From: Candidatus Omnitrophota bacterium
Lineage (GTDB): Bacteria > Omnitrophota > Gorgyraeia > Zapsychrales > Fredricksoniimonadaceae
Length of the DNA: 64,000 bases
NCBI GenBank assembly: GCA_028865345.1
Contig: JAGWKL010000003.1
Location: 184 to 64,183 of the forward strand
Direction of reading: 5' to 3'
This document shows, piece by piece, positions 19,445 through 44,113 of the stretch; the first letter of the stretch is position 1; every line of letters begins with the position of its first letter. Both the position numbers and the translations under genes were made by a program. The notes under the pieces are model-generated. The model did no database searches, was not told the origin of the DNA, and saw only the letters and a program-made list of their open reading frames with translations.

Positions 19445-20165
19445 TATAGGCAATACCACCATCGGCTTTGCCGTGCTCAACAACTCCGGGCGGATCAAAT
19501 CGTCGGTTGTCATTGATACGGATTCAAAGACCGGCAGGATAAAGGCGGTGGTTGCCAAGATTTTGAAAGCCGGGGGACTCAAAAGGGCCATCATATGCTC
19601 TGTTGTCCCCCGGGTTTCGAAGGTGCTGGAGAATATTTTAAAAAAGAGCATGCCTGTTGATATCATAGGCCGGGATATCTTCGTGCCGGTCAGGAACCGT
19701 TATAAAAATCCGAAACAAGTGGGCCAGGACCGTTTGGTGGGCGCTTTCGGCGCCATGAAAATTTATGGCCGCCCGTTGATCGTAGTAGACTTGGGAACAG
19801 CCGTCACCTTTGACGTTATCTCGCCCAAGGGGGAATATTTGGGGGGCGCCATCGTCCCGGGCCTTCGCTTGTCCGCGGAATCCCTATTTTTGAAAACCGC
19901 GCTTTTGCCCCATATCGAGATTGCGGCCCCGCGCCGGATCATAGGGAGAACGACCCGGGAAAGCATCCTTAGCGGCCTGTTTTATGGCTATGGCTCATTA
20001 TGCCGCGGGTTTATTGATTTAATAAGCCGGCAAATCAATCCCAAACCTAAGGTGGTGATGACCGGAGGGCATACCCGTCTCATGAAAAAGTTTGTCTCGC
20101 CTAAAATCCGCATTATTGATGAAGATTTAGTGTTTAAAGGGATTTATTTCTTGTCACGTTCATAA
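19428..20165 (+). CDS. coaX: Type III pantothenate kinase
   Basis: MLLAVDIGNTTIGFAV N-terminus and a GTAVTFD motif. Confidence 0.85.
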   Translation: MLLAVDIGNTTIGFAVLNNSGRIKSSVVIDTDSKTGRIKAVVAKILKAGGLKRAIICSVVPRVSKVLENILKKSMPVDIIGRDIFVPVRNRYKNPKQVGQDRLVGAFGAMKIYGRPLIVVDLGTAVTFDVISPKGEYLGGAIVPGLRLSAESLFLKTALLPHIEIAAPRRIIGRTTRESILSGLFYGYGSLCRGFIDLISRQINPKPKVVMTGGHTRLMKKFVSPKIRIIDEDLVFKGIYFLSRS

Positions 20166-20202
20166 CTAATTATATTTTATATAGATACAAACTTGACAAG
20201 CC

Positions 20203-20234
20203 ACTATTATATGTTAATCTTTCATAAATTGGTA
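20203..20234 (+). promoter_or_regulatory. Putative sigma70-type promoter of the giant gene (TTGACA, ~16-nt spacer, TAATCT) in an AT-rich 156-nt spacer
   Basis: A consensus −35 hexamer was seen, but the −10 assignment is ambiguous. Confidence 0.3.
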
Positions 20235-20321
20235 AGAAAACGTTTTTTAATGTTGTTTTTCCAACCTAAGGCGGATTCCCTTGGGTAGATAGAAAATTCA
20301 TTCACGTAAGGAGAACAGTAA

Positions 20322-23300
20322 ATGACTTTTTCATCCATCCGCCGTTCCTGGTATTCCCGTTATATTAGCTTATGTCTTATGGCCGCCTTTATAGGGACCA
20401 TGGTGATTACGCCTAAGGCTTATGCTCAGGAGGGGGTTTTGGGACTGCCCCAACCAGGGGCAATGGTGGATCTATCTCCCGCTTATGTGCCGCTCATGAT
20501 CACCGGTTTGACCGTGCATCCCCACAATCCTTTATTAATGGATTTTATTGTTAATACCGGCAACAGCGGCTTGGATGCCGCCCAGGTTAAAAAAGAATCC
20601 GGCCGCCTGATCAAATATTTTTTGGCCTGCCTCACCATTCCCGAGAACGATCAGTGGGTCAACCTTTCGCCGTATGAAAAAGACCGCATCATCCCCAAAG
20701 ATTTAGGGCAGACCGTATTGGGCCGGGATATGCTGGCCCAGGATTATATTTTGAAACAATTGACCGCGTCCATGATCTATCCGGAAAAGAATTTGGGAAG
20801 GAAATTTTGGAACGACGTTTACGCAAAGGCTCGTCAGATGTACGGCACCACCCAAATCCCGGTGAATACTTTTAATAAGGTATGGATTTTGCCGGAGTTT
20901 GCCCAAGTCTATGAACATGGCAACACCGTACTTGTCGTCAAGAGCCATCTCAAGGTCATGCTCGATCAGGATTATCTGGCTTTAAAACACCATGCGCAAG
21001 GGGTGAGCAGCACGGCCGAAGAATCCAAAGTCGATACGCTCGGAAGTCAAATCGTCCGCCAGGTCATTCTTCCGGCCATAGAACATGAAGTCAACACGGG
21101 CAGGAACTTCGCCCAAATGCGCCAGATCTATAATTCCATGATCCTGGCCGTCTGGTTTAAGGAGAATTTGAAGCAGGCCCTTCTCAACCAGGTCTATACG
21201 GACAGATCCAAGGTCAACGGCGTCAATGTGGCTGACCCGGCCATTAAAGAAAAGATATACAGGCAGTATCTTGAGGCCTATAAGAAGGGGGTATTCAACT
21301 ATATTAAGGAAGAGACCGACCCTAACAGCCAGGAGACCATCCCTCGTAAATATTTCTCCGGAGGGCTGACTCCGTTTGATGCCGCCATGCTTCATAAGGT
21401 GCCGGCAGAGGAAGCCGAGGCCGATCTTAGCGGCCAGCCTGGAAGAACTTTCGATCTCCTGAGTGAGGTCGGCAAGGTTCCGGGGAACGCGGCCCATCCC
21501 AACGCGGCGATGACGGTTTCTTTGAATAGGGGCTTAACAGAGGCATTGAATCAATTAGGCGTTTCAAATCAACTCAATGCGGTCCAGGGAATCATGGTGG
21601 ATGCCGTCAATGTTGAGGGGTTTTTGGGTAATTTGGATAAATTGTATGAGGGCAAGAAAAGTCCGGAAGCCATCAAAACCGCCCTCACCAATGTCGGGAT
21701 TCTGTCAAGAGACGGCACAAGCATTACCACAGAAATATTTGATCAAAACAATGCAGTGACGATGTTCAAATCCAGGTTGGGCGTCAAGGAAGTTTATGTC
21801 CTGAGCATTCAAAAAGCCATGGTGGATGCCATGGATGTGCCCCAATTTTTAAAATCATTTCCGGATGAACAGCAATCCACTGTTGCAGAGGCTTTAGTCA
21901 ACAACGGCGGAGACAACGGCATTTTTGAGGCGTTCAAGCCTTTTGTATCAACGCCCCAAACTTCCAACGCGGCCATGACATCGACTATTGAAAGCGCATG
22001 GCGACGGGCTGATGAGATGGGATTAAAGGGAGCGATTTTGTTGGAATTTGAAGAAGAACATCCCCGGGGAGGCGGAGACATTAATTTATTTGTCCCGGCC
22101 GTCCTTGCACCATTACATCAGGTGAAAGGGAAGCTGCTTTCCGGTTTTCCTCACGGCTCTGGTAAAGATGTTTATATTGATGGGACTCCCGGTTTTTCTC
22201 CCGATAATATTATTATGATCAAATGGAAGGATCTGGTTTATTTGGCCCCGCATCTAAAGCCCCAGGGGTTGTCGGCCATTTTGAGTTTTTTTCAGGCGCA
22301 ACACCAGGGATTGCCCCAAGCCAATGATTTGATAGAGATCGTACGGACCGATGCGGCAATGGCTGGCCAACCCAGCCGGCAGCTGGAAAATATTTTGTCG
22401 GAAAAAGTGACATCGGTCAAAGAAAGCATGCAGCCCCTGCTGGAGGCTTACGACGCGGCCAAGGCCCAAGGTCAGGCCGATAAGGTCAAAGGCATTGAAG
22501 GCGAAATCAACCAGATCGTCGACAAGGTCAATGTCTACGATCAATCCAACCCCGAAGATTTGGTCCTTTCTGATGATGTTCAATCCCTGGCAGGCTTCTT
22601 AAGCAGTCCCGATGTTCGGGTCTATCAGAATGAGGCCAGGCAGGATCTTTTAACGGGCGACTATGTGCCGCAATTTATTTTTGCCGGCGCGGCCACGCGC
22701 CTTAACCGTGGGCCGATGTATAACTTGGATATTTGGGACATAGCTGTGGAAATGGGTAAGGCCAAACCGGGAGATGCCAAGTCACATATGGGTATGGGGC
22801 CCCGCCAGATCATGGCTTACCGTTTGGCGTTGGAATCCCTGGCCCAGAAGAATGGGCTTCCGGTGCAGGAGGTTCTGGCCAGGCAGAAAATGATCGTTAA
22901 CGTGAATGCTGACGTTGAGCAGATTGTTCTGGACGATTTTCTCAAGAATGATTTCTACGGATTCGACCCGGACAATGTTTATTTCATCACCCAGCCGACC
23001 TTCCATGGTTATAAATTTGAAAACGGTCGTTTGGTGTTTGATCCGAAAAGCCCCACGGTGCCTTATGGTCATGGATATAATTTTATGCAATTGGGCCAGC
23101 CGGGGCAGGCGTATACATTGGGTCTCGACGGAAGCCGCCGCTATTTGAAAGGCAGTGTTTTGAGCCAGTTCCCTGATGATGCCCTCATTGGCAGCCATCG
23201 CATCAATGATTTGACCAAACTCTCCGAGGATTCCGTGGTCAGTGTGGATAAACTGGCTTTTGCGATCGCCAAATTTGAACAGGGCTTTGACGTGGTCGGG

Positions 23301-26018
23301 GAACTGGTCGATAACCCCAACAAGCAAAAAGGCGGGAATGTGTTGAAGAACAGGAAGACCGGCAAGAGCTTTCTGATTGAGACTTCGAATGTCAAAGGCA
23401 ACCCGGCGCTCATCAAGCTCCTGGATGAAGCTGGGAAGGTGGGCGCGCCGTATAATGCTTTCAGGCTGGTGTATAAGGTCGGAGGTTTAAAAAAGATCCT
23501 GCAGGAAAATTTGCCGTTTAACCTGAGGTTCAAGGATGGAGAGTTTTATTTGGAGGCGGTTACAGGTGATGTGACCCAAATGCCTGATACAAATGCCGTG
23601 TTCATGAACTCAGGGGAGCAGATACATGATTTTAAAGAGCCCAAGAATATGGACGATGCTCTCTATTATTTGAGGAAAAGCGACGATCAAATAGCTTCCG
23701 CTAATCCGGCGATGGTTACAGATGAATCCATTTTGTCCTGGCGCTCCCCGCACGGCCTGTCCTTGAGCCAGGTTTTGGACAAGATCATCAAGGAGTACGA
23801 TATCCGCGGATTTGACGGATATGGCGATCAGACGCAATATCCCCAGCAGATGGATGCCACGTTGCTGCGCTGGATCGGCCGGGCGTTGGGGATGGTGAAA
23901 TTTTATTCGGCGGCGCACGACAGGGAAGTCCAATTGAAGCCGGGGGACACCTTTGTTATCGGCGGCGACAATGGGCCGTCAACGGAGGAATTGGTAAAGA
24001 AGAATTTGATTAAAGGCTTGCGCGATGTGGGGATCAACGTGATCGACCTGGGCGTCACCAATTCCGGGCACACGTATAAGAGCATTAAAGAATTTGGGGC
24101 GCAGGGCGGCCTGTATGTTACGCGCAGTCATGTGGAGGTGGGGACCAACGGCGCAAAACCCATTATCGACGGCATTACCCTTTATGGTGAAATGCTTACG
24201 GCCATTAAAGGCCAAATCCTCAAGGCGGAGTACCGCAAGGCGCAGCGCGGGGAATTAATGACCGAACATGAGCCGGAAGCGGCAAGTTTGAGGGCCAGGG
24301 CAAAACAAGCCTATCTGGATTCATTGAAGCGGGATTACCGCGGATTGGCTGACCAGCTGTCGCAAATGGGATTGCGGGTGGCCGTTAATTTAAACAGCGG
24401 TTCCATGGCGGCAGATGCCGATTATCGCCAGGTGATCCGCGATATTCTCGGTGCGGGGAATATTGAAACCTTTCTTAAAGAGGAACCGGATGCGCTGGCC
24501 ACAAAGGGCCTGGCCGATCCGTCACGTGCCGACGAAAAAGCTTTGGCCCACAAGGAAGCCAATATTGTGGCCTACTCCGAAAACCATCCGGACGTTCCTG
24601 TTTTTAACTTTGACCTGGACGCGGACAGGGTGAGTATTTTATGGAACGGCCGGCTTTTCCTGGGGGATGAAATATTTTATCCCATCATTGAATACCAGTC
24701 GACCCTGGCGCCCTATGCGGATATCCTGAGAAATGAAGCGGGGTTTGCTTTTGATTCGCGGATGAAATCGGAAGTTTTTGAACTGGCGAAGCATTTTGGC
24801 GTAAAAGCCGGGCTGCACCCGAAGGGGCACTCAAAAGTGAAAGCCACCATGGATGTCATCCTGCGCCAGATCGCCTCCCAAAGAGGAATGACGGTGGCCA
24901 AATTTTTGAAAACACATCCCGGCTTCCGCATGGCCGAACCGGAGTATTCGCTTCATATGTTCCTTTCGAATTCCAGGGGGGAATCCTTGGATGATGCCCT
25001 GGATTTCATGTTTTTCTGGCTCAACGCGTGGGGAAAAGTTACAGAAGCAAAAGGCGATTCCCAGCTCACGCTTGCACAATACATTCAGAATTTAAAGGAT
25101 AAAGGCATTATTAACGATGCCAAGCAGGTGCCGGAACAGCGCATCCCCATTAATGAAGACGCCAAATTTGATTCGATGACAAAGATGAAAAATGCGGTGA
25201 TTGACTTTTTTGCGGGGCGGGATGATTTCGAATATATCAGCGATTACCGGGACTCCAGCAAGAGGTCAAAATCCTATGCGTTGGTCAATAATGACGGCGT
25301 GTTTCATTTGTATACCCCTTACGGCGAGGCTTTCTGGGGATGGTCAAACACTTCTCCGAAAGTGGCCATTGGCGTGCAAAGCGCCACGGAGGAATCCAAG
25401 AAGCGGTTGGCCCAAATCGTCACGGCCATGTATATTCATGCCCGCAACAGGGTCGCTGAGGATTTGCACATCAGCCTTCCCCAAATAGATCCGCTTGAAA
25501 CAAAGGCGCTTTATCAGCTTATGGGGGCATCATCTCCGGGCGAGTTGGAAGGCAAGATCCTTGAGAAATATCCGACCATGGAGGCCGCCTTAAGCGCAAT
25601 ACCCGATGCCGCGATGGCTGCAAGCAGTGCGGTCATTGGAGAAGAAACCGATTGGCTGCGGGCGATCAATTCTTCCGGCAGCAATGAGCAGCTTAAAGGA
25701 ATCACCAAACAGCTCTCCCGCAGCGGATTGCCGGAGCGTGAAATAGAAAAATTGATCCAGGCCGCCAATTTCAGGCGAAAACTCATCTTTAAGAATGAAA
25801 AGAATAAATACGGCTTGGGCAGATCTCAAGCCGAGCCCGGCGGTATCGACCTTAATTCCAGAACGCTGAACATGGAGAGTACGGGGCAAAAGGTGCACAT
25901 CACCTTTGACCCTGCCATGATCGCGCAATTCCGTCGCGGGGATTTTTCCGGCGTTAAAATCCAAATTCTCAACGTTGTTCCGATCCAGCTTGCGCCGTTA
26001 TTGGGTCTCAAACAATAG
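20322..26018 (+). CDS. Giant (1,898-aa) signal-peptide protein with internal phosphohexomutase-like and UDP-sugar-pyrophosphorylase-like regions
   Basis: One uninterrupted ORF with an AGGAG RBS and an N-terminal signal peptide (…AFIGTMVITPKAYA|QE). By eye, residues ~1120-1500 follow the phosphoglucomutase/phosphomannomutase motif order (DIRGFDG; VIGGDNGPS; GGLYVTRSHVEVGTNG in place of TASHNP; DLDADR in place of DGDGDR). Residues ~760-1100 have NTP-transferase/UDPGP-like loops (FAGAATRLNRG; PYGHGYNF). The rest is unassignable. Confidence 0.8.
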   Translation: MTFSSIRRSWYSRYISLCLMAAFIGTMVITPKAYAQEGVLGLPQPGAMVDLSPAYVPLMITGLTVHPHNPLLMDFIVNTGNSGLDAAQVKKESGRLIKYFLACLTIPENDQWVNLSPYEKDRIIPKDLGQTVLGRDMLAQDYILKQLTASMIYPEKNLGRKFWNDVYAKARQMYGTTQIPVNTFNKVWILPEFAQVYEHGNTVLVVKSHLKVMLDQDYLALKHHAQGVSSTAEESKVDTLGSQIVRQVILPAIEHEVNTGRNFAQMRQIYNSMILAVWFKENLKQALLNQVYTDRSKVNGVNVADPAIKEKIYRQYLEAYKKGVFNYIKEETDPNSQETIPRKYFSGGLTPFDAAMLHKVPAEEAEADLSGQPGRTFDLLSEVGKVPGNAAHPNAAMTVSLNRGLTEALNQLGVSNQLNAVQGIMVDAVNVEGFLGNLDKLYEGKKSPEAIKTALTNVGILSRDGTSITTEIFDQNNAVTMFKSRLGVKEVYVLSIQKAMVDAMDVPQFLKSFPDEQQSTVAEALVNNGGDNGIFEAFKPFVSTPQTSNAAMTSTIESAWRRADEMGLKGAILLEFEEEHPRGGGDINLFVPAVLAPLHQVKGKLLSGFPHGSGKDVYIDGTPGFSPDNIIMIKWKDLVYLAPHLKPQGLSAILSFFQAQHQGLPQANDLIEIVRTDAAMAGQPSRQLENILSEKVTSVKESMQPLLEAYDAAKAQGQADKVKGIEGEINQIVDKVNVYDQSNPEDLVLSDDVQSLAGFLSSPDVRVYQNEARQDLLTGDYVPQFIFAGAATRLNRGPMYNLDIWDIAVEMGKAKPGDAKSHMGMGPRQIMAYRLALESLAQKNGLPVQEVLARQKMIVNVNADVEQIVLDDFLKNDFYGFDPDNVYFITQPTFHGYKFENGRLVFDPKSPTVPYGHGYNFMQLGQPGQAYTLGLDGSRRYLKGSVLSQFPDDALIGSHRINDLTKLSEDSVVSVDKLAFAIAKFEQGFDVVGELVDNPNKQKGGNVLKNRKTGKSFLIETSNVKGNPALIKLLDEAGKVGAPYNAFRLVYKVGGLKKILQENLPFNLRFKDGEFYLEAVTGDVTQMPDTNAVFMNSGEQIHDFKEPKNMDDALYYLRKSDDQIASANPAMVTDESILSWRSPHGLSLSQVLDKIIKEYDIRGFDGYGDQTQYPQQMDATLLRWIGRALGMVKFYSAAHDREVQLKPGDTFVIGGDNGPSTEELVKKNLIKGLRDVGINVIDLGVTNSGHTYKSIKEFGAQGGLYVTRSHVEVGTNGAKPIIDGITLYGEMLTAIKGQILKAEYRKAQRGELMTEHEPEAASLRARAKQAYLDSLKRDYRGLADQLSQMGLRVAVNLNSGSMAADADYRQVIRDILGAGNIETFLKEEPDALATKGLADPSRADEKALAHKEANIVAYSENHPDVPVFNFDLDADRVSILWNGRLFLGDEIFYPIIEYQSTLAPYADILRNEAGFAFDSRMKSEVFELAKHFGVKAGLHPKGHSKVKATMDVILRQIASQRGMTVAKFLKTHPGFRMAEPEYSLHMFLSNSRGESLDDALDFMFFWLNAWGKVTEAKGDSQLTLAQYIQNLKDKGIINDAKQVPEQRIPINEDAKFDSMTKMKNAVIDFFAGRDDFEYISDYRDSSKRSKSYALVNNDGVFHLYTPYGEAFWGWSNTSPKVAIGVQSATEESKKRLAQIVTAMYIHARNRVAEDLHISLPQIDPLETKALYQLMGASSPGELEGKILEKYPTMEAALSAIPDAAMAASSAVIGEETDWLRAINSSGSNEQLKGITKQLSRSGLPEREIEKLIQAANFRRKLIFKNEKNKYGLGRSQAEPGGIDLNSRTLNMESTGQKVHITFDPAMIAQFRRGDFSGVKIQILNVVPIQLAPLLGLKQ

Positions 26019-31367: not shown

Positions 31368-34300
31368 ATGAGCGATCCGCAATTCGTCCACCTTCACGTC
31401 CACACCCAATATTCCCTGTTAGACGGCGCTTGCCGCGTCGATGAATTGGTCGGCAAGTGCGCCCAGTTCGGCATGCCGGCCTTGGGGCTGACCGACCACG
31501 GGAATATGTTCGGCGCCATCCATTTTTATAAGGCCTGCCAAAAAGCCAAAATTAAACCCATCATCGGTTGTGAAGTGTATGTTTCACCCTCCGGCCGTTT
31601 CGAGAGGGCCTCCGACCAGAAAAACATTTGTCATTTGACCCTGTTGGCCGCCGACAATGAGGGCTATGCCAATTTGATGAAATTAGTCAGCGCGGCCTAT
31701 TTGGAAGGTTTCTATTATAAGCCGCGCATTGACAAGGACATTTTAGCCAAGCATGCGCGCGGGCTTATCGGCACCTCGGGTTGCCTTAAGGGCGAGGTGG
31801 CCGGGCATTTATTGCGGGGGTCTTTCGAATCCGCGTTGAAGACGGCGGCGCAATACGCCGAGATCTTCCCCCGTGGGCATTATTACATCGAGCTCATGGA
31901 CCACGGCATCATGGAACAAAAAAAGGTCAATGAAGACTTGGTCAGGATCGCCGGTCAGTTGGACCTGCCGCTGGTGGCGAGCAATGACGTGCATTATATC
32001 GAGCGTACCCAGGCCATGGCGCACGAAACCCTGCTGTGCATCCAGACCCAGATGACCTTAAATGATCCCCAACACATGCGGTTCGGCACAGACCAGTTTT
32101 ATTTTAAAAGCCCCCAGGATATGGCCGCCCTTTTTGCCGGATTTCCCGACGCTGTTAAAAACACCATGGCTATTGCCGAACAGTGTGATTTAAAGCTGGA
32201 TTTCAGCCAGTATCACCTTCCGCATTATGATGTGCCCGGGGGCATGAGTCTTCAAGCCTACCTGTTTGATCTGTGCGAGAAGGGGGTGTCTAAACGTTAC
32301 CCTGACAGGGCCAATGACGAAGCGTTGCGCCGGCGCCTGGAATACGAGCTTAAGACCATTGCGGACATGGGGTTTGTCAGTTATTTCCTGGTAGTATGGG
32401 ACTTCATCAACTATGCCAAATCCATCGGTGTTCCTGTCGGGCCGGGCCGCGGTTCGGCCGCCGGCAGCCTGGTCAGTTACCTGTTGGGGATCACGGACTT
32501 GGACCCCATCAAATACGGCCTGCTGTTCGAGCGTTTCTTGAACCCGGGCCGCAAAAGCATGCCGGACATCGACATCGACTTTTGTTTCGAACGCCGCGGC
32601 GAGATCATCGATTATGTCACTAAAAAATACGGGGCCGATAATGTGGCCCAGATCATCACCTTCGGGTCCATGCAGGCCAAGGCCGCGGTGCGCGACGTGG
32701 GCCGGGCCATGGGGATGAGTTACCCGGATGTCGACCGCATTGCCAAGCTCATCCCCAACGAATTGGGGATCACCATCGAGCAGGCCCTGAACGTGGAGCC
32801 GCAATTGCGGCAGGCCGTTGAATTCGACAAGACCGCCCAACAGTTGCTGGCCACGGCCCGGGTGCTGGAGGGGCTCAACCGCCACGCCTCCATCCATGCC
32901 GCGGGTGTCGTCATTGCAGACAAGCCCCTGACGGAATACGTGCCTTTGTTCAAAAGTTCCGACGGGCAGATCACCACGGCCTTTGATATGGACGGCATCT
33001 CCCAGATCGGGTTGGTGAAAATGGATTTTCTGGGTTTAAGGACCCTGACTGTCATTGACCAGGCCGTCAAGCTCATCAAGAAACACCAGGGTGTGGAGAT
33101 CAATATTGATACCATTCCTCTCGACGATAAGAAAACCTACGAGATGTTGTCAAGCGCCTGTGCCATGGGGGTGTTCCAGGTGGAAAGCGGGGGCATGCGC
33201 GATCTATTAAAGAAAATGAAACCCTCCGAGTTTGAGGACCTCATCGCCATCAATGCCCTTTACCGTCCCGGGCCGATGGGTTCAGGCATGCTGGATGATT
33301 TTATCAGGCGCAAGCGCGGCGAGCAGAAGATCGCCTACCCGCATCCCAAACTGGAGCCCGTGCTTAAATCCACCTATGGGATCATTCTTTACCAGGAACA
33401 GGTCATGCAGATCGCCTCGGTTATGGCGGGTTTCAATATGACCCAGGCCGATGACTTGCGCAAGGCCATGGGGAAGAAAATAGCGTCGGAAATGCAAAAA
33501 ATGCGGTCCTTTTTTATCGACGGGTGCGCCAAGACCAGCCTGATGCCGGGGCCCCAGGCTGATCAGCTATTTGATTTGATCGATTATTTCGCCGGTTACG
33601 GGTTCAACCGCAGCCATTCCGCGGCCTATGCGCTGATCACCTACCGCACCGCCTATTTAAAAGCCAATTATCCGGTGGAGTATATGACGGCGCTGTTGAC
33701 TTCGGAAAAAGACAATACGGACAAGGTCGTTGAATATATCAAGGAATGCGCGAGCCTGGGGATCGACGTTTTGCCGCCGGATGTCAACCATAGTTATGCC
33801 CAATTCACCGTGGAAAAGAACAAAGCCGTCCGTTACGGCCTGCTGGCCGTCAAAAATTTGGGCGCCGGAGCCATTGAATCCGTCGTCCAGGCCCGCAGGG
33901 AAGGCGGGGCGTTTGCTTCCGTGTTTGATTTCTGCGGCCGTGTTGACCTGCGTTTGAATAACCATAAGGTCCTGGAAAGCTTGATCAAGTGCGGCGCTTT
34001 CGATGTCTTTAAATGCCGGAGGTCCCAGATGATGGCGGTGCTGGACATGGCCCTGGAGGTGGGAACGCGCCGACAAAAAGAAAAAGAGGTCGGCCAGATC
34101 TCTTTCTTTAATATGGCAGAAGAGGGCAGCGGCTTTGGCGGGAACCAGGAGGGCTTGCCCGACATCCCGGAATGGCCGCAGGCTTCAGTTTTGGCCCATG
34201 AAAAGGCCCTGTTGGGGCTTTATTTGAGCGGCCATCCGCTGGACCGCTATAAAACCGAGATCGAGAAATTCGCTGATTTTACGACGGGCAATATCAAAAA

Positions 34301-34802
34301 CGCCCGCGATGGGCAGGAGGTCCGCATGGTGGGGCTTATCACGGGCGTCAAGCTGACCACCACCAAGAAAACCAACGAACGCATGGCCATCGTGGGGCTG
34401 GAGGACAACGACGGAGAGATGGAAATCGTGGTATTTCCATCCAGCTATGCCCAGGTTTCTCCTTATTTGAAGGAAAATACAGTGGTGGTGGTCAAGGGCA
34501 AGGTGAGTTTCCGGGATGGTTTTCCCAAAATGGTGGCCAATGAAATGGCGGGCATTGATGAGGTCTATGATCTGGTCAAGTCTGTGCAGGTGGATTTATC
34601 GGATTCGGGCCAGTTTGAGAAATTAAAAGAGAAGCTGATGCGTTTCCCCGGCAAGACCCCTGTGTATTTGCAGATGCACGCGGATAATTATAAAAAAGTG
34701 CAGATTTTGGTGGGTGAAGAATTTTATGTCACGCCCAGCGAAGTTTTGGTGGAAGAGATCAAGGTGTTGGTGGGGGAGAATAATTTTTCGTTGACACTGT
34801 AA
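31368..34802 (+). CDS. dnaE: DNA polymerase III alpha subunit
   Basis: 1,144 aa with an N-terminal PHP domain (HLHVHTQYSLLDG), the palm (GxxKMDFLGLRTL) and a C-terminal OB fold. Confidence 0.95.
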   Translation: MSDPQFVHLHVHTQYSLLDGACRVDELVGKCAQFGMPALGLTDHGNMFGAIHFYKACQKAKIKPIIGCEVYVSPSGRFERASDQKNICHLTLLAADNEGYANLMKLVSAAYLEGFYYKPRIDKDILAKHARGLIGTSGCLKGEVAGHLLRGSFESALKTAAQYAEIFPRGHYYIELMDHGIMEQKKVNEDLVRIAGQLDLPLVASNDVHYIERTQAMAHETLLCIQTQMTLNDPQHMRFGTDQFYFKSPQDMAALFAGFPDAVKNTMAIAEQCDLKLDFSQYHLPHYDVPGGMSLQAYLFDLCEKGVSKRYPDRANDEALRRRLEYELKTIADMGFVSYFLVVWDFINYAKSIGVPVGPGRGSAAGSLVSYLLGITDLDPIKYGLLFERFLNPGRKSMPDIDIDFCFERRGEIIDYVTKKYGADNVAQIITFGSMQAKAAVRDVGRAMGMSYPDVDRIAKLIPNELGITIEQALNVEPQLRQAVEFDKTAQQLLATARVLEGLNRHASIHAAGVVIADKPLTEYVPLFKSSDGQITTAFDMDGISQIGLVKMDFLGLRTLTVIDQAVKLIKKHQGVEINIDTIPLDDKKTYEMLSSACAMGVFQVESGGMRDLLKKMKPSEFEDLIAINALYRPGPMGSGMLDDFIRRKRGEQKIAYPHPKLEPVLKSTYGIILYQEQVMQIASVMAGFNMTQADDLRKAMGKKIASEMQKMRSFFIDGCAKTSLMPGPQADQLFDLIDYFAGYGFNRSHSAAYALITYRTAYLKANYPVEYMTALLTSEKDNTDKVVEYIKECASLGIDVLPPDVNHSYAQFTVEKNKAVRYGLLAVKNLGAGAIESVVQARREGGAFASVFDFCGRVDLRLNNHKVLESLIKCGAFDVFKCRRSQMMAVLDMALEVGTRRQKEKEVGQISFFNMAEEGSGFGGNQEGLPDIPEWPQASVLAHEKALLGLYLSGHPLDRYKTEIEKFADFTTGNIKNARDGQEVRMVGLITGVKLTTTKKTNERMAIVGLEDNDGEMEIVVFPSSYAQVSPYLKENTVVVVKGKVSFRDGFPKMVANEMAGIDEVYDLVKSVQVDLSDSGQFEKLKEKLMRFPGKTPVYLQMHADNYKKVQILVGEEFYVTPSEVLVEEIKVLVGENNFSLTL

Positions 34803-34896
34803 GTCGTTGTTGGTACGATACTTCCGTTTAATTTGAAGAAAAACCAACTCGTCTAAGTTGCGATAAAGCGGCAGGTTTTGTTAAGGAGAGTCTTTA

Positions 34897-35169
34897 ATGA
34901 CCAAAAAGGATATCGTTTTAAAAATCACCGATGCCACCGGCATCAAGCAAGTGGATGTCAAAAAGATCGTGCAAAAAACTTTTGATGTCATTGTTGATTC
35001 CCTGATGCAGGGGGACAAGGTGGAGTTGCGTAATTTTGGGGTCTTTAAGATCAAAGAGCGACGCGCCCGTTTCGGCCGTAATCCCCGCACGGGACAGAGC
35101 GTTCCCGTCCCTCCCCGGAAAGTCGTGGTTTTTAAGTCCGGTCTGGAAATGAAGCAGAAAGTCAAATAG
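34897..35169 (+). CDS. HU/IHF-family DNA-binding protein
   Basis: 90 aa with the HU arm motif (RNFGVFKIKERRARFGRNPRTGQSV). Confidence 0.85.
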   Translation: MTKKDIVLKITDATGIKQVDVKKIVQKTFDVIVDSLMQGDKVELRNFGVFKIKERRARFGRNPRTGQSVPVPPRKVVVFKSGLEMKQKVK

Positions 35170-35182
35170 CCGTCCAATTCAC

Positions 35183-36457
35183 GTGAATAAAACCTTCGCC
35201 GTCCCCCGCGGGACATCCGATATATTACCCGATGCTATTCCACTCTGGGAAGCATTAGAATCCAAGGCCAGAAAAATTTGTAAATCCTACGGCTACAGGG
35301 AAATCCGTACGCCTATCTACGAGGACATTAATCTTTTTAAAAGGTCCCTTGGAGCAACCAGTGATGTGGTCCATAAACAGCTTTTAGAGATGGTTTCAAG
35401 CAAAGAAGAGGAAGGCTACGCTCTGCGTCCGGAAGGGACGGCATCCATTGTGCGTTCTTATCTTGAGAACAGTTTTGACAAGAAAGAGCCTTTATCCAAA
35501 TTTTTTTATATTGGTCCCATGTTCCGCGGTGAGCGTCCGCAAAAAGGGCGGTTACGCCAGTTTCATCAAATTGGAGTAGAAGCTATAGGTACTGATGGTG
35601 CTTCTCCATTTCTTGACGCGGAGATCTTGACTTTGGTCATGCATCTGCTCCAAGAGTTTCATGTCCAAGGGCCAAAACTTAAAATTAATTCTTTGGGGTC
35701 TAAAGAAGATAAAGAAAGAATCTCATTATGGTTACGCAAAGAATTTACTAAACATAAAAATGAATTATGCGAAGATTGCCAAAGACGTTATGAACACAAT
35801 GTTTTTCGTGTTCTTGACTGTAAAAATGAGAAATGCCGTAAAATAGTCGATTCATTTGTTCAAGATTTGCCTTTGTCCGATATAAGTAGGGGATATTTTG
35901 AGGCGGTTCAGAAGGCATTGAAAGAAGCAGGTATCAATTTTGAGATCGCTCCTCATTTGGTAAGAGGATTGGATTATTATACACATACGGTTTTTGAAAT
36001 AACGGCAGAGGGGCTGGGGAGCCAAGATGCTGTCGGGGCAGGAGGACGTTACGCAGGGCTTTTAGACGATTTGGGCGGGAACGAAAAAACGGAGTATGGT
36101 GCTATTGGTTTTGCGTTAGGAATGGAACGGATATTATTGGCTTCTGGCAAGGCCCAAGAGGGGCCTCAAACAATAGATGCCTTTGTGATTGAAACTCAGG
36201 CAGAGTATCAATTTCGATCGTTTCAATTATTAAGCGATTTACGTAAGAATGGCATCAGCGCTACGACAAATTTTTCAGGCGGTTCGATGAAGTCCCTAAT
36301 GAATCAAGCCAACAAAGCCAATGCCCGGTTCGCTTTGATCATCGGTGATCAGGAATTTAAAGATGAGACTGTTTCAGTAAAAAACATGAGTACCAGTCAG
36401 CAGGAGACGGTGGCTTTATCAGGAATTATCGAGATAATGAAGGATAAATTGAAATAA
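35183..36457 (+). CDS. hisS: Histidine--tRNA ligase
   Basis: The GTSDILP N-terminus, class II motifs and a C-terminal anticodon-binding domain. GC content is visibly lower (~40-45%) than in the neighbouring genes. Confidence 0.9.
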   Translation: MNKTFAVPRGTSDILPDAIPLWEALESKARKICKSYGYREIRTPIYEDINLFKRSLGATSDVVHKQLLEMVSSKEEEGYALRPEGTASIVRSYLENSFDKKEPLSKFFYIGPMFRGERPQKGRLRQFHQIGVEAIGTDGASPFLDAEILTLVMHLLQEFHVQGPKLKINSLGSKEDKERISLWLRKEFTKHKNELCEDCQRRYEHNVFRVLDCKNEKCRKIVDSFVQDLPLSDISRGYFEAVQKALKEAGINFEIAPHLVRGLDYYTHTVFEITAEGLGSQDAVGAGGRYAGLLDDLGGNEKTEYGAIGFALGMERILLASGKAQEGPQTIDAFVIETQAEYQFRSFQLLSDLRKNGISATTNFSGGSMKSLMNQANKANARFALIIGDQEFKDETVSVKNMSTSQQETVALSGIIEIMKDKLK

Positions 36458-42317: not shown

Positions 42318-44030
42318 ATGCGCCTCAATATCATTCAATCCGTTGTTTTTTTCCTGCTGGGGGCGATCATCTGTAGTTTGTTTTATATGCAGATCATCCA
42401 TGGCGCCTATTGGCGCCGCCAGAGCACGAATAATCGCATCCGTATCGTGCCTGTCGACGGACCGCGGGGAAGGATCCTGGACCGTCATGGGACCGTTTTG
42501 GCCGATGACCGGGTGGCATTTGAGGTGGGGGTCATTCCCCAGGACATCGAGGATCAAGGGGCTTTATTCGGTTATTTAGGAAGCGTGCTTCATCAAGACC
42601 CCCAATCCCTGGAGCGCCGCTTCGGGCGTGAAAAACAGGCCCCTTTCGCGCCTGTCATTCTGGCGGAGGATGTCCCGCGTCAGCTCGCCATCAAGATCGA
42701 GGAGGAAAAATTTGTTTATCCGGGGCTGATCGTCCAGCAGGGCTTCGAACGTTACTATCCTTTTCATGACATCGGCGCGCATGTGCTGGGTTATGTGGGC
42801 AAAATCAGCAAAGATGAGATTGCCGAAAACCATTCCTACGGTTATACGCCTTTAAGCCGGGTGGGGAAAACAGGCATTGAAGAAGAGTACGAACCGTTTT
42901 TAAAAGGACATCCGGGGGGCCGTCAGATCGAGGTCAACAGCCGCGGCCGGCAGGTGCGCCTCCTGGGCCTCAAGGATCCGTCGGCTGGAAACGACGTGGT
43001 GCTGACCGTGGATGCGCGCCTGCAGGCGGCGGCCCAGGAATTGTTAAGCGGACAGCGCGGCGGTATAGTGGTCATGAATTTAAACACCGGAGAATTGTTG
43101 TCTTTGGTCAGCTCGCCTTCCTATGACCCGAATGTTTTTTTGGACAAGACCAGGTCCGGCGAGCTGCGTTCCTATTTGAATGATCCCCTGACGCCTTTGT
43201 TTGACCGTGTGACTTGCGGCCTTTACCCGCCGGGTTCGGTGTTCAAGGTCCCGGAAGCCCTGGCCGCCATCCAGCTTCACAAGATCACGCCCCAGACGAC
43301 CTTTTTCTGTCCGGGGTACATGTTGGTGGGCAAGAGAAAATTTCATTGCGCGGAAGTGCACGGGGTGCAGGACCTGCAAGAGGCCATTGCGCATTCCTGT
43401 AATGTTTATTTTTTCCATGTCGGCCTGCTGCTCCAACCGCACCTCATCGGCGCATTTGAGAAAGCTTTCGGGCTCACTCGTCCCACAGGAATAGACCTGC
43501 CTTACGAGGCCAGGGGCCATATGGTGACCAAGGCATCAAGGGGCAGGCCGTGGTATACGGGGGATGTGCTGAATTTGTCCATCGGCCAGGGGTATACGCT
43601 GGTGACGCCTCTGGAATTGACGGTGATGATGGCGGCGGTCGCCGATGACGGCATCGTTTTGCAGCCCCGCCTTGTCCGGCAGATAGGCGGCCGTCTGCTT
43701 ATACCGGAAGATCTGTCCAAAAGGCCATTGATCAAGCTGCGCAAGCAAACATGGCAGATCGTGCAACAGGGACTTAGAGCCTGCATTGATGATCCGACGG
43801 GAACATGCCGTGACCTGGCAGCGGTGCCGGGTCTGGATATTTACGGTAAAACAGGCACCGCTCAAACTGTTTACGGTAAGCCCAATGACGCATGGTTCGT
43901 GGGCTATACGCGGTCTGCCAAAGCAGGCATCGCTATCTGCGTTTTTCTGGAATACGGAGGGTCGTCCGAGAATGCCGTCAAAATTGCCCGGGATCTGCTT
44001 TTAAAACTTCAAACCCTCAAGGTCATATGA
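42318..44030 (+). CDS. mrdA: Penicillin-binding protein 2 (peptidoglycan D,D-transpeptidase)
   Basis: N-terminal TM segment, PBP dimerisation domain and a transpeptidase domain with SxxK (SVFK), SxN (SCN) and KTG (KTGTA) motifs. Confidence 0.9.
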   Translation: MRLNIIQSVVFFLLGAIICSLFYMQIIHGAYWRRQSTNNRIRIVPVDGPRGRILDRHGTVLADDRVAFEVGVIPQDIEDQGALFGYLGSVLHQDPQSLERRFGREKQAPFAPVILAEDVPRQLAIKIEEEKFVYPGLIVQQGFERYYPFHDIGAHVLGYVGKISKDEIAENHSYGYTPLSRVGKTGIEEEYEPFLKGHPGGRQIEVNSRGRQVRLLGLKDPSAGNDVVLTVDARLQAAAQELLSGQRGGIVVMNLNTGELLSLVSSPSYDPNVFLDKTRSGELRSYLNDPLTPLFDRVTCGLYPPGSVFKVPEALAAIQLHKITPQTTFFCPGYMLVGKRKFHCAEVHGVQDLQEAIAHSCNVYFFHVGLLLQPHLIGAFEKAFGLTRPTGIDLPYEARGHMVTKASRGRPWYTGDVLNLSIGQGYTLVTPLELTVMMAAVADDGIVLQPRLVRQIGGRLLIPEDLSKRPLIKLRKQTWQIVQQGLRACIDDPTGTCRDLAAVPGLDIYGKTGTAQTVYGKPNDAWFVGYTRSAKAGIAICVFLEYGGSSENAVKIARDLLLKLQTLKVI

Positions 44031-44113
44031 TCCTGTGGGATAAACGTGCTCTCAAAATAGGGGAGAAAATAGTGGATGGGTCTTACAGGTATGGTAAAAT
44101 ATTTTTACAAAAT

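What the first reader, a model, noticed from the sequence alone, without database searches (positions are those of the whole stretch)
20322..26018. Giant exported protein that appears to embed both UDP-glucose-forming enzymes (phosphohexomutase-like + UDP-sugar pyrophosphorylase-like)
A 1,898-aa ORF with a classical signal peptide and its own AT-rich upstream region. By eye, residues ~1120-1500 carry the alpha-D-phosphohexomutase motif series in the canonical order. DIRGFDG matches the GxDGIRG-type entry loop. GGLYVTRSHVEVGTNG is the active-site Ser loop, with SHVE in place of SHNP. DLDADR is the metal loop, with all three Asp kept. Residues ~760-1100 carry UDPGP/UAP-like loops (FAGAATRLNRG; PYGHGYNF). 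Having Glc-6-P→Glc-1-P→UDP-Glc chemistry inside one giant secreted or anchored polypeptide, flanked by ~700 and ~400 aa of unassignable sequence, would be unusual. The alternative is a catalytically dead, sugar-phosphate-binding surface protein. Gene GC is a few points below its neighbours.
Basis: partly seen in the sequence, partly recalled or inferred. Interest (0 to 1): 0.8.

Follow-up and report, generated by a model that had tools for sequence, protein, structure and literature searches.

The report
Exported capped two-enzyme cassette protein
This real 1,898-residue gene from an uncultured Omnitrophota bacterium encodes a protein with an export signal that carries two divergent sugar-activating enzymes between conserved end-caps, and it belongs to a family of thousands of such "capped cargo" proteins whose purpose is unknown.

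Summary
The ORF at 20322..26018 (+) is real. Its N-terminus looks like a classical Sec signal peptide. Residues 681-1127 are a divergent UDP-sugar pyrophosphorylase (UDPGP) homologue. Residues 1132-1761 are a divergent phosphohexomutase with the catalytic Ser-His, the DxDxDR metal loop and the ExSxH sugar loop conserved.

The protein is not a one-off. It belongs to a large unnamed family seen almost only in Omnitrophota-type MAGs: 8,311 clusters at 50% identity, with several copies per genome. Members share four parts:
- a signal peptide;
- a conserved N-cap of about 320 residues with no detectable fold relative;
- variable cargo made of typically cytoplasmic domains (glycolytic and sugar-nucleotide enzymes, kinases, even REC and HTH domains);
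- a C-cap of about 60 residues (GGIDLN…FDPAMI…PLLGL).

In this protein every module border carries a D/N-x-A-M motif. The motif is about 50-fold enriched in the family and nearly absent from neighbouring genes.

Two preprints already note sugar-metabolism domains in exported Omnitrophota giant proteins. I found no description of the caps or of the junction motif.

The most likely function is inferred, not shown. I read it as an exported or delivered enzyme cassette that converts partner-cell NDP-hexose, hexose-1-P and hexose-6-P.

The parts
20166..20321 (+). AT-rich upstream spacer (29.5% GC) with a Shine-Dalgarno AAGGAG at 20308-20313
   Evidence: Promoter-like hexamers at 20151-20210 are consensus matches only.
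20322..20426 (+). Predicted Sec signal peptide, aa 1-35, with predicted cleavage AYA|QEG
   Evidence: Sequence. Family-wide n/h/c-region statistics over 175 N-termini. Not run through SignalP.
20427..21377 (+). N-cap, aa 36-352: conserved family domain (LPxPGxMV…WVNLSPYEKDR…DYILKQLTAS…PRKYFSGG)
21378..21512 (+). Linker with two D/N-x-A-M motifs (aa 353-356 DAAM, 394-397 NAAM); 63% GC
   Evidence: Low pLDDT in the model.
21513..21965 (+). Module B, aa 398-548, function unknown; followed by NAAM at aa 549-552 (nt 21966-21977)
   Evidence: Borders from HSP ends and the motif. No PDB or Pfam relative.
21978..22349 (+). Module C, aa 553-676, function unknown; adjacent to the UDPGP-like module also in P0004 and P0005; followed by DAAM at aa 677-680 (nt 22350-22361)
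22362..23702 (+). Module D, aa 681-1127: divergent UDP-sugar pyrophosphorylase (UDPGP/UAP)-like nucleotidyltransferase. Loops: FAGAATRLNRG 787-797, FYGF 878-881, PYGHG 914-918, KQKGG 1001-1005. Followed by NPAM at aa 1128-1131 (nt 23703-23714).
   Evidence: Profile against PDB 2yqc, E=3.9e-7. hhalign against canonical UDPGP segments, 97.2% probability, E=3e-11. Invariant G, R, GHG, KGG and D columns.
23715..25604 (+). Module E, aa 1132-1761: divergent alpha-D-phosphohexomutase-like enzyme. Ser1269-His1270, D1431/D1433/D1435-R1436, E1541-S1543-H1545, S1675-N-T-S-P1679. About 170 aa of insertions. Followed by DAAM at aa 1762-1765 (nt 25605-25616).
25617..25838 (+). Helical tail, aa 1766-1839 (three predicted helices)
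   Evidence: AF2 model, pLDDT 77-91
25839..26015 (+). C-cap, aa 1840-1898: GGIDLN…ITFDPAMIAQFRRGDFSGV…PLLGLKQ. Contains the seventh D-x-A-M (DPAM 1863-1866, nt 25908-25919) at the start of its only predicted helix.
   Evidence: Shared by 94 of 119 homologues. In 79 related loci it is essentially always on the same protein as an N-cap. No autonomous fold predicted.

Best explanation
The gene encodes a Sec-exported modular protein of an Omnitrophota-specific 'capped cargo' family.

Shown:
- Architecture: signal-peptide-like N-terminus, N-cap, two unknown modules, a UDPGP-like module, a phosphohexomutase-like module, a helical tail and a C-cap.
- Every border carries a family-specific D/N-x-A-M motif in an otherwise variable linker.
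- Both enzyme modules keep their catalytic motifs under strong conservation.
- The N-cap and C-cap co-occur on the same protein.
- Cargo across the family is a shuffled set of cytoplasmic-type domains.

Inferred:
1. The protein crosses the inner membrane through Sec and is cut after Ala35.
2. The two caps act together in a post-export step: surface retention, or transfer towards or into a partner (prey or host) cell.
3. The enzyme pair works where nucleotide sugars and sugar phosphates are available, meaning partner-cell cytoplasm or its leaked contents.
4. There it interconverts NDP-hexose + PPi <-> hexose-1-P + NTP (module D) and hexose-1-P <-> hexose-6-P (module E).
5. The module order matches the harvesting direction, NDP-hexose to hexose-6-P.
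6. The D/N-x-A-M linkers are flexible junctions that may also be processing or recognition sites.
For: Anatomy and homology.

Export signal: positive-inside n-region, short h-region and AxA-type c-region in 175 of 175 family N-termini analysed. There is no other hydrophobic segment of TM length in the protein.

Family scale and distribution:
- 8,311 clusters, with the N-cap at the N-terminus in all 150 listed hits.
- At least 592 loci in species-representative genomes, almost all titled Omnitrophota or Planctomycetales MAGs, with several per genome and tandem arrays.

Caps: C-cap hits pair with an N-cap except where the ORF is truncated or split.

Cargo:
- Cytoplasmic-type and mosaic: hexokinase, PGI, TIM, PGK, enolase, PPDK, NDK, ADK, glycogen synthase, malate synthase, ICL, REC, HTH.
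- The UDPGP-like module recurs beside PGM, hexokinase, NDK, ADK and GT2/glucan synthase, a coherent sugar-nucleotide theme.
- An uncapped canonical 479-aa phosphohexomutase sits next to a capped gene in one MAG. A capped PGK lies outside any gap-pgk-tpi context. Both suggest the capped enzymes are accessory copies.

D/N-x-A-M motif:
- 116 DAAM observed against 2.1 expected.
- 3.7 per 1000 aa in this protein against 0.07 per 1000 aa in the 34 other window ORFs.
- Enriched at module borders: 27% within 15 aa against 10% for random placement.
- Codons differ between copies, so selection acts on the peptide.

Precedents:
- A PVC-group parasite secretes PGM and glycogen enzymes: Chlamydia CT295 (PMC9251005) and PMC4829429.
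- Preprints report sugar-metabolism domains in predicted extracellular parts of Omnitrophota giant proteins (10.1101/2023.11.21.568195; 10.64898/2026.06.07.730766).
- Omnitrophota are inferred to be host-dependent or predatory (PMC10066038).
Against: - No experiment or dedicated predictor supports export. The call rests on sequence rules.
- UTP, PPi, Mg2+ and glucose-1,6-bisphosphate are not expected in a periplasm, so activity needs an unusual location.
- No conserved neighbouring secretion or protease gene was found in 79 loci.
- The N-cap fold could not be assigned.
- The C-cap has no autonomous predicted fold.
- About a third of long family members (60 of 189) carry at most one D/N-x-A-M, so the motif cannot be essential to the family's mechanism.
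- Both enzyme modules are divergent: SHVE instead of SHNP, AGAATRL instead of GGxGTRL, and the phosphate-loop Arg apparently replaced. Activity and substrate are therefore uncertain.
- The accessory-copy argument rests on two loci only.
Confidence: 0.45

Rival explanations
1. Membrane-tethered cytoplasmic metabolon. The N-terminal hydrophobic segment is an uncleaved anchor and the whole cargo stays on the cytoplasmic face. There the UDPGP-like and PGM-like modules make NDP-hexose for the cell's own glycogen or envelope glycans, and the caps act as scaffold or oligomerisation elements.
For: All cargo types in the family are cytoplasmic-type and need ATP, UTP or DNA: kinases, NDK, REC, HTH. The module combinations form a coherent hexokinase-PGM-UDPGP-NDK-glycogen synthase route. 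Nielsen & Lui consider inner-membrane-anchored cytoplasmic enzymes for the TM-only class of giants (10.64898/2026.06.07.730766).
Against: K/R lie before the hydrophobic core, not after it, in all analysed N-termini (2.8 against 0.5). The core is signal-peptide length. It is followed by Pro and a small-x-small site. Standard topology rules therefore put the bulk outside. An uncapped canonical phosphohexomutase exists beside a capped gene.
Confidence: 0.2
2. Non-catalytic display. The two enzyme-like modules are degenerate and serve as sugar-phosphate or nucleotide-sugar binding (lectin-like) modules on an exported adhesin or scavenger protein.
For: Module D escapes Pfam UDPGP entirely. Module E reaches only PGM_PMM_I. 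The family HMM of module E does not find the canonical PGM domains of other members. The consensus loops are altered: SHVE, AGAATRL, GWSNTSP.
Against: The phospho-Ser/His, all three metal-loop Asp plus Arg, the E-x-S-x-H loop, the YDIRG Arg and the GTNGxK Lys are conserved in 12 homologues that are only 38-58% identical to the query overall, apart from one R-to-F change in YDIRG in P0002. GHG, KGG and the TRL Arg are conserved in module D. Such conservation is typical of active enzymes.
Confidence: 0.15
3. Bacterial polyprotein. After export the chain is cut at the D/N-x-A-M junctions, and perhaps at the invariant Gly-Gly motifs at the inner edges of the caps, releasing free enzymes. This refines the main explanation rather than excluding it.
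For: The motif sits in variable, low-confidence linkers at every module border here and is enriched at module borders family-wide. It is nearly absent from other proteins. Invariant YFSGG and GGIDLN flank the cargo. The preprints report C39 double-glycine peptidase domains and suspect cleavage, but state that cleavage points are unknown (10.1101/2023.11.21.568195).
Against: No protease is linked to the family. A third of members lack the motif. In the C-cap the same motif starts a predicted helix inside a conserved element, which fits a structural or recognition role as well. No proteomic evidence is available.
Confidence: 0.3
4. Artefact: a chimeric ORF created by misassembly or by read-through of separate genes.
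For: None found.
Against: An identical 1898-aa protein sits on a 192-kb NCBI contig. P0003 shares the D+E arrangement at 49% identity over 98% of that segment. Thousands of proteins have the same cap-cargo-cap layout.
Confidence: 0.01

Closest known systems
Omnitrophota giant proteins: 'Archaeovorins' (West-Roberts et al. 2023 preprint, 10.1101/2023.11.21.568195) and the 'multi-enzyme metabolic cluster' class (Nielsen & Lui 2026 preprint, 10.64898/2026.06.07.730766)
   Same: Same phylum. Signal peptide or membrane association. PGM/PMM, hexokinase, starch synthase, TIM, PGI, FBPase and PPDK domains embedded in large exported polypeptides. Function unknown and cleavage suspected.
   Different: Those studies treat proteins of at least 10,000-30,000 aa with many TM helices. 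This protein is 1.9 kaa with a signal peptide only. The conserved N-cap, the C-cap and the D/N-x-A-M junction motif are not described in the parts of those papers I read or searched.
MARTX toxins (own knowledge: Vibrio RtxA-type multifunctional autoprocessing toxins)
   Same: Conserved N- and C-terminal regions flank a mosaic, recombining array of effector domains joined by short linkers that are cut to release the effectors in the target cell.
   Different: No RTX or glycine-rich repeats, no cysteine protease domain and no type-1 secretion signal were detected. This protein has a Sec signal peptide instead. The cargo is central-metabolism enzymes rather than toxins. Delivery and cleavage are unproven.
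Secreted glycogen-pathway enzymes of Chlamydia trachomatis, including the phosphoglucomutase CT295 (PMC9251005; PMC4829429)
   Same: A PVC-group, host-dependent bacterium exports housekeeping-type sugar-phosphate enzymes (PGM, glycogen synthase and others) to process host UDP-glucose or Glc-1-P into importable Glc-6-P outside its own cytoplasm.
   Different: The Chlamydia enzymes are separate proteins with type-3 secretion signals. They have no caps, no fusions and no Sec signal peptide.
alpha-D-phosphohexomutase superfamily (e.g. P. aeruginosa PMM/PGM, PDB 1k35/4il8; 3uw2)
   Same: Domains I-III align (E=1.5e-14). The Ser-His loop, DxDxDR metal loop, GHSxVK, an E-x-S-x-H sugar loop and an S-N-T-x-P phosphate loop are present.
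   Different: SHVE replaces SHNP. There are about 170 extra residues. Domain IV is recognised only at motif level, and the phosphate-loop Arg is not evident. The module is embedded in an exported multi-module protein.
UDPGP family (PF01704; UDP-GlcNAc pyrophosphorylase UAP1 2yqc, UDP-glucose pyrophosphorylases)
   Same: N-terminal helical region, a nucleotide loop of the xGxxTRL type, FYGF, PxGHG and KGG motifs in canonical order. HHalign probability 97%.
   Different: Below Pfam detection. The Gly-rich loop is AGAATRL. The module forms its own subfamily, found only inside capped proteins in my searches.

Membership tests
alpha-D-phosphohexomutase superfamily | Significant match to family HMMs or structures over domains I-III | tested here: met
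   Pfam PGM_PMM_I E=5e-9, above the cut-off. NCBIfam PgmG aa 1155-1514 to model 9-317/460, E=7e-15, far below the equivalog cut-off. Profile against PDB 3uw2, E=1.5e-14, profile 19-369 to chain 23-337.
alpha-D-phosphohexomutase superfamily | Phosphoserine loop T-(A/G)-S-H-N-P | tested here: inconclusive
   TRSHVE: Ser1269 and His1270 are kept and align with the catalytic SH of 4il8. N-P is replaced by V-E. The loop is invariant in 12 homologues.
alpha-D-phosphohexomutase superfamily | Metal-binding loop D-x-D-x-D-R | tested here: met
   DLDADR 1431-1436 aligns with DGDGDR of 3uw2. D, D, D and R are invariant.
alpha-D-phosphohexomutase superfamily | Sugar-binding loop (GEESGH type) and domain IV phosphate-binding loop (R-x-S-x-T-x-P type) | tested here: inconclusive
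   E1541-Y-S-L-H1545 and W-S-N-T-S-P 1674-1679 are conserved. They lie outside the significant alignments. The domain IV alignment was not significant, and the Arg is not evident.
alpha-D-phosphohexomutase superfamily | Mutase activity | not testable with these tools
   Needs an enzyme assay.
UDPGP (PF01704) nucleotidyltransferases | Match to the Pfam model at the gathering threshold | tested here: not met
   No PF01704 hit, even at E<=1.
UDPGP (PF01704) nucleotidyltransferases | Remote homology to solved or Pfam-positive UDPGP members across the catalytic core | tested here: met
   Profile A1 against 2yqc, E=3.9e-7, two stretches. hhalign against PF01704-positive segments: 97.2% probability, E=3.1e-11, 231 columns.
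UDPGP (PF01704) nucleotidyltransferases | Nucleotide loop G-x-G-T-(R/S)-(L/M), P-x-G-H/N-G and K-G-G motifs | tested here: inconclusive
   AGAATRL (Arg793 invariant), PYGHG 914-918 and KQKGG 1001-1005 (K, G, G nearly invariant) are present. The two Gly of the loop are Ala.
Omnitrophota capped-cargo family (defined here) | Signal-peptide-like N-terminus followed by the N-cap (LPxPGxM … WVNLSPYE … RKYFSGG) | tested here: met
   aa 1-352. Best-scoring hit of the family profile..
Omnitrophota capped-cargo family (defined here) | C-cap GGIDLN…FDPAM…PLLGL within about 15 residues of the C-terminus | tested here: met
   aa 1840-1898
MARTX toxins | Glycine-rich RTX-type repeats, an inositol-hexakisphosphate-activated cysteine protease domain, and a type-1 secretion signal without a Sec leader | tested here: not met
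   No such Pfam or NCBIfam domains. A Sec-type leader is present. The resemblance is architectural only.
Sec-exported proteins (SPase I substrates) | n-, h- and c-regions with small residues at -3 and -1 | tested here: met
   Manual rule-based analysis only. SignalP/DeepTMHMM and experiment were not available.

The most novel reading that the evidence does not exclude
Omnitrophota export polyproteins built from ordinary cytoplasmic enzymes and regulators. A dedicated N-cap/C-cap pair carries them out of the cell and towards or into a partner cell. The D/N-x-A-M junctions, and the Gly-Gly edges of the caps, are the processing or recognition code that divides these proteins into working units. 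That code might also apply to the phylum's 10-150 kaa giants. In this reading the protein is a delivered 'UDP-hexose to hexose-6-phosphate' harvesting cassette.
Probability: 0.2. Interest if true: 0.9.

Novelty: new variant of a known kind. Interest (0 to 1): 0.7.

Why it matters
Omnitrophota are widespread, ultra-small and probably host-dependent or predatory bacteria. Their large proteins are a recognised puzzle, and published work says it cannot tell whether or where they are cut, or why glycolytic domains appear on the outside of the cell.

This window gives a compact, tractable example of 1.9 kaa with one signal peptide and two recognisable enzymes. It also points to three concrete handles:
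- a conserved N-cap;
- a conserved C-cap that always accompanies it;
- a short junction motif that marks module borders.

These handles make several questions directly testable:
- Is the cargo exported?
- Is it cut at the motif?
- Do the caps mediate delivery?
- Do exported central-metabolism enzymes feed the bacterium from a partner cell's metabolites, as Chlamydia does with secreted PGM?

If instead the cargo proves cytoplasmic, the family would be an unusual way of tethering metabolism to the membrane.

Tried and rejected
- The C-cap model showed no autonomous fold, so I ran no fold search on it.
- The C-cap database search returned only three short fragments because of the word index, and was uninformative. 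I replaced it with a local HMM search of the fetched loci.
- Modules B and C (aa 398-676) have no PDB or Pfam relative.
- I considered internal translation starts at the Met of D/N-x-A-M and rejected them, because no Shine-Dalgarno precedes any of the seven ATGs.
- I considered a DNA-level recombination repeat at the junctions and rejected it, because codons differ between copies.
- I looked for a conserved partner gene (protease or secretion component) next to capped genes in 79 loci and found none.
- The family HMM of module E did not detect the canonical PGM domains of other members, so module E is a separate deep subfamily.
- No replacement punctuation motif was found in lineages poor in D/N-x-A-M, only S/P-rich linkers.
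- Rfam found nothing in the window, and there are no tRNAs.
- The Kizina et al. 2022 proteomics paper (PMC9004380) is not held.
- The first literature query was too loose and gave nothing useful.
- 'Omnitrophota' plus 'polyprotein' found no paper.
Full report
**The observation**

The ORF 20322..26018 (+) is the longest in its neighbourhood, at 1898 aa with an ATG start. AAGGAG lies 8 nt upstream of the ATG. The 156-bp spacer before the gene has 29.5% GC. The gene itself has 50.1% GC against 52.4% for the window, and its first third is lowest at 46.7%. An identical protein is deposited as a hypothetical protein (KGJ09_02775) of a Candidatus Omnitrophica MAG, on a 192-kb contig.

The neighbours are ordinary chromosomal genes. 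Upstream lie ileS, a pseudouridine synthase, uvrB and coaX. Downstream lie groEL, an IMPDH-like gene, guaA, dnaE, hisS, aspS, phoH, a PBP2-type transpeptidase and an AsmA-family gene. The AsmA-family gene fits a two-membrane envelope.

**The N-terminus**

The sequence MTFSSIRRSWYSRYISLCLMAAFIGTMVITPKAYA|QEG has three Arg before a hydrophobic core of about 15 residues. A Pro sits at -6 and A-Y-A at -3 to -1. No signal-peptide predictor was available, so I measured the same features in 175 family N-termini:
- 2.8 K/R against 0.25 D/E before the core, and 0.5 K/R after it.
- Mean Kyte-Doolittle value of 2.57 for the best 12-mer.
- 97% have a small-x-small site before the conserved LPxPGxM that opens the mature domain.

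Apart from the weakly hydrophobic end of the C-cap, no other stretch approaches TM length or hydrophobicity. By standard rules this is a cleavable Sec signal peptide and the bulk of the protein lies outside the cytoplasm. This is inferred, not shown.

**The two enzyme-like modules**

Residues 1132-1761 belong to the alpha-D-phosphohexomutase superfamily:
- Pfam PGM_PMM_I, E=5e-9, above the gathering score.
- NCBIfam PgmG over aa 1155-1514, E=7e-15.
- phmmer hits to P. aeruginosa PMM/PGM structures.
- A 7-sequence profile reaches E=1.5e-14 over domains I-III of PDB 3uw2 and 4il8. In that alignment DLDADR pairs with DGDGDR and GHSKVKA with GHSLVKA.

In 12 homologues that are only 38-58% identical to the query overall, several motifs are essentially invariant. 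They are YDIRG (one homologue, P0002, has YDIRF), TRSHVE[VI]GTNGxKP, DLDxDR, EYS[LT]HMF and WGWSNTS. The phospho-Ser/His, the metal-binding Asp triad and the general acid-base positions are therefore kept. SHNP has become SHVE, about 170 residues are inserted, and the phosphate-loop Arg is not evident.

Residues 681-1127 get no Pfam hit. Two other tests support UDPGP homology:
- A 12-sequence profile hits UDP-GlcNAc pyrophosphorylases. The best is 2yqc at E=3.9e-7, in two stretches that include the nucleotide loop and the FYGF region.
- A profile-profile comparison with Pfam-positive UDPGP segments from other family members gives 97.2% probability, E=3e-11, over 231 columns. It pairs AGAATRL with AGASTRM, FYGF with YGF, PYGHG with PLGHG and QKGG with QKGG.

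**What the flanks are**

Local BLAST of the protein against its 119 best database relatives shows three things. All of them share aa 1 to about 350 at 50-77% identity. Most share aa 1840-1898. The middle differs from protein to protein.

The middle of other members holds many domain types:
- canonical PGM, UDPGP, hexokinase, PGI, transaldolase, TIM, PGK, enolase and PGAM;
- PEP synthase/PPDK, FBPase, NDK, adenylate kinase and glycogen synthase;
- NAPRTase, glutamate dehydrogenase, malate synthase, isocitrate lyase and an aminotransferase;
- a carrier-protein domain, response-regulator receivers and an XRE-type HTH.

About half of the members have no recognisable cargo.

A profile of the N-terminal module finds 8,311 representative clusters (50% identity) at E<=1e-3, and 6,636 at E<=1e-30. 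In all 150 hits listed the match starts within about 50 residues of the protein N-terminus. A scan of one genome per species finds at least 592 loci. Nearly all are titled Omnitrophota or, for one MAG series, 'uncultured Planctomycetales'. There are several per genome (four loci of one MAG among the best 80) and tandem arrays of two or three capped genes.

A local HMM of the C-terminal module hits 73 ORFs in those loci. Sixty also carry the N-cap. The other 13 are truncated at a contig edge, or look like split continuations of an upstream capped ORF, or carry a variant N-cap. The two caps therefore belong together.

Neither cap matches Pfam or NCBIfam.
- C-cap: the model shows extended chain and one helix, with no autonomous fold. 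This suggests it folds against a partner.

**The junction motif**

In this protein the tetrapeptide [DN]-x-A-M occurs seven times, at aa 353, 394, 549, 677, 1128, 1762 and 1863. Six of these coincide with the module borders defined independently by BLAST HSP ends. The seventh (1863) lies inside the C-cap.

- Enrichment. In the 120 relatives DAAM occurs 116 times against 2.1 expected. NAAM, DPAM and NPAM are 30- to 60-fold enriched.
- Context. The 526 sites lie in otherwise variable sequence.
- Position. 27% of internal HSP ends lie within 15 residues of a motif. Random placement gives 10%, with a maximum of 14% in 200 trials.
- Specificity. Density is 3.7 per 1000 aa in this protein against 0.07 per 1000 aa (one site in 15,280 aa) in the other 34 ORFs of the window. 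In related loci it is 1.7 per 1000 aa in capped ORFs against 0.35 in other ORFs.
- Level of selection. The codons differ between copies and no Shine-Dalgarno precedes the internal ATGs. The signal therefore acts on the peptide, and internal initiation is unlikely.

Two caveats apply. About a third of long family members (60 of 189) have at most one such motif and use S/P-rich linkers instead. In the C-cap the motif (DPAM) is the N-terminal cap of the only predicted helix. The motif is thus a lineage-specific junction mark. Whether it is a cleavage site, a recognition helix or a purely structural linker element cannot be decided here.

Two invariant Gly-Gly motifs also sit at the cargo-facing edges of the caps: YFSGG at the end of the N-cap and GGIDLN at the start of the C-cap.

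**How it most likely works**

Shown:
- A signal-peptide-like leader.
- Two co-occurring caps.
- Shuffled cytoplasmic-type cargo.
- Conserved catalytic motifs in both enzyme modules.
- A recurrent sugar-nucleotide theme around the UDPGP-like module. It sits next to canonical PGM in P0004, P0013, P0018 and P0019, hexokinase in P0005, NDK in P0121, adenylate kinase in P0135 and a GT2/glucan-synthase in P0137.
- No conserved partner gene nearby.

Inferred: the protein is exported by Sec, the caps mediate a later targeting step, and the enzymes act where nucleotide sugars and sugar phosphates exist outside the producer's cytoplasm. That place would be the cytoplasm of a partner cell, or its leaked contents.

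Several points favour this reading:
- ATP-, UTP- and DNA-dependent domains behind an export signal make sense mainly in another cell's cytoplasm.
- Omnitrophota are inferred to be host-dependent or predatory (PMC10066038).
- A capped PGK lies beside other very large genes rather than in a gap-pgk-tpi context.
- One MAG has a canonical uncapped 479-aa phosphohexomutase directly upstream of a capped gene. These last two observations suggest the capped enzymes are accessory copies, but they are only two loci.
- Chlamydia, another PVC-group parasite, secretes its PGM and glycogen enzymes to turn host UDP-glucose into importable Glc-6-P (PMC9251005, PMC4829429). The module order here, pyrophosphorylase then mutase, matches that harvesting direction.

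I put this explanation at about 0.45. The main rival is a cytoplasm-facing membrane-tethered metabolon, at about 0.2, because it contradicts the positive-inside pattern of all 175 N-termini. Non-catalytic binding modules get about 0.15, and an artefact about 0.01. Processing at the motif is a refinement of the main explanation, with a probability of about 0.3.

**Relation to what is known**

Two preprints describe the general phenomenon.
- West-Roberts et al. (10.1101/2023.11.21.568195) report TIM, PGI, FBPase, PGM/PMM, aldolase and PPDK domains in predicted extracellular parts of giant Omnitrophota 'Archaeovorins'. They suspect proteolytic processing and state that cleavage points are unknown.
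- Nielsen & Lui (10.64898/2026.06.07.730766) define a 'multi-enzyme metabolic cluster' class among proteins of at least 10 kaa. It includes PGM, starch synthase and hexokinase, mostly with signal peptides or TM helices, and they leave the function open.

Seymour et al. (PMC10066038) do not mention such fusions. I found no description of the 0.6-4 kaa capped family, of its caps, or of the junction motif. I could not read Kizina et al. 2022.

Architecturally the nearest analogue is the MARTX toxin layout (own knowledge): conserved ends, mosaic effector array and processed linkers. None of its defining domains is present. The two enzyme modules are new deep subfamilies of known enzyme superfamilies.

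**Verdict**

It must be re-framed, however. This is one member of a very large, unnamed, Omnitrophota-restricted family of exported capped-cargo proteins, not a unique fusion. I rate it a new variant of a known kind, with interest 0.7.

Noticed in passing
window 21345-21365 (RKYFSGG) and 25839-25856 (GGIDLN): Invariant Gly-Gly motifs sit at the cargo-facing edges of both caps. The preprints report C39 double-glycine peptidase domains as recurrent in Omnitrophota giant proteins, so the caps might be removed at these sites.
   Followed up: no
L020:3700-14191, L030:1354-11771, L066:2340-13138, L008:6408-15334, L011:2765-9091: Capped genes often occur as head-to-tail tandem arrays of two or three paralogues with different cargo.
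   Followed up: partly
P0139 (aa 2130-2192) and other members of alignment A5: Some capped proteins carry an XRE-type helix-turn-helix, response-regulator receivers, an acyl-carrier domain, isocitrate lyase or malate synthase as cargo. The glyoxylate-shunt enzymes are notable because a survey of 176 complete Omnitrophota genomes reported that shunt absent.
   Followed up: no
L004:439-1878: A canonical uncapped 479-aa phosphohexomutase (full-length GlmM/PGM model matches) lies about 650 bp upstream of a capped gene in the same MAG. It is only 28% identical to the capped PGM cargo it matched best.
   Followed up: partly
L080:1-25967: A capped phosphoglycerate-kinase protein (1988 aa) is preceded by a 4952-aa ORF, a HEAT-repeat protein and a MazE-like antitoxin. 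Downstream, after mutL and mutS and several small ORFs, lie a pilin-like gene, an Rce1-like protease and a secretin.
   Followed up: no
L079 (contig DYOU01000064.1): One capped gene lies on a 6.3-kb contig of a MAG labelled Candidatus Elulimicrobium (Patescibacteria group). Another homologue (P0135) is labelled Candidatus Eisenbacteria. These could be mis-binning or rare occurrences outside Omnitrophota.
   Followed up: no
window 43892-46921 vs 42318-44030: The 1009-aa TPR-containing ORF overlaps the end of the PBP2-type transpeptidase gene by about 140 nt as listed. Its true start is probably further downstream.
   Followed up: no
window 34001-36000: A second low-GC stretch (46%) with high GC skew lies around the 380-bp spacer between dnaE and hisS. 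No Rfam family was found there.
   Followed up: partly
window 21378-21512: The linker between the N-cap and module B has 63% GC, far above the rest of the gene (45-52%), and holds two junction motifs 41 residues apart.
   Followed up: no
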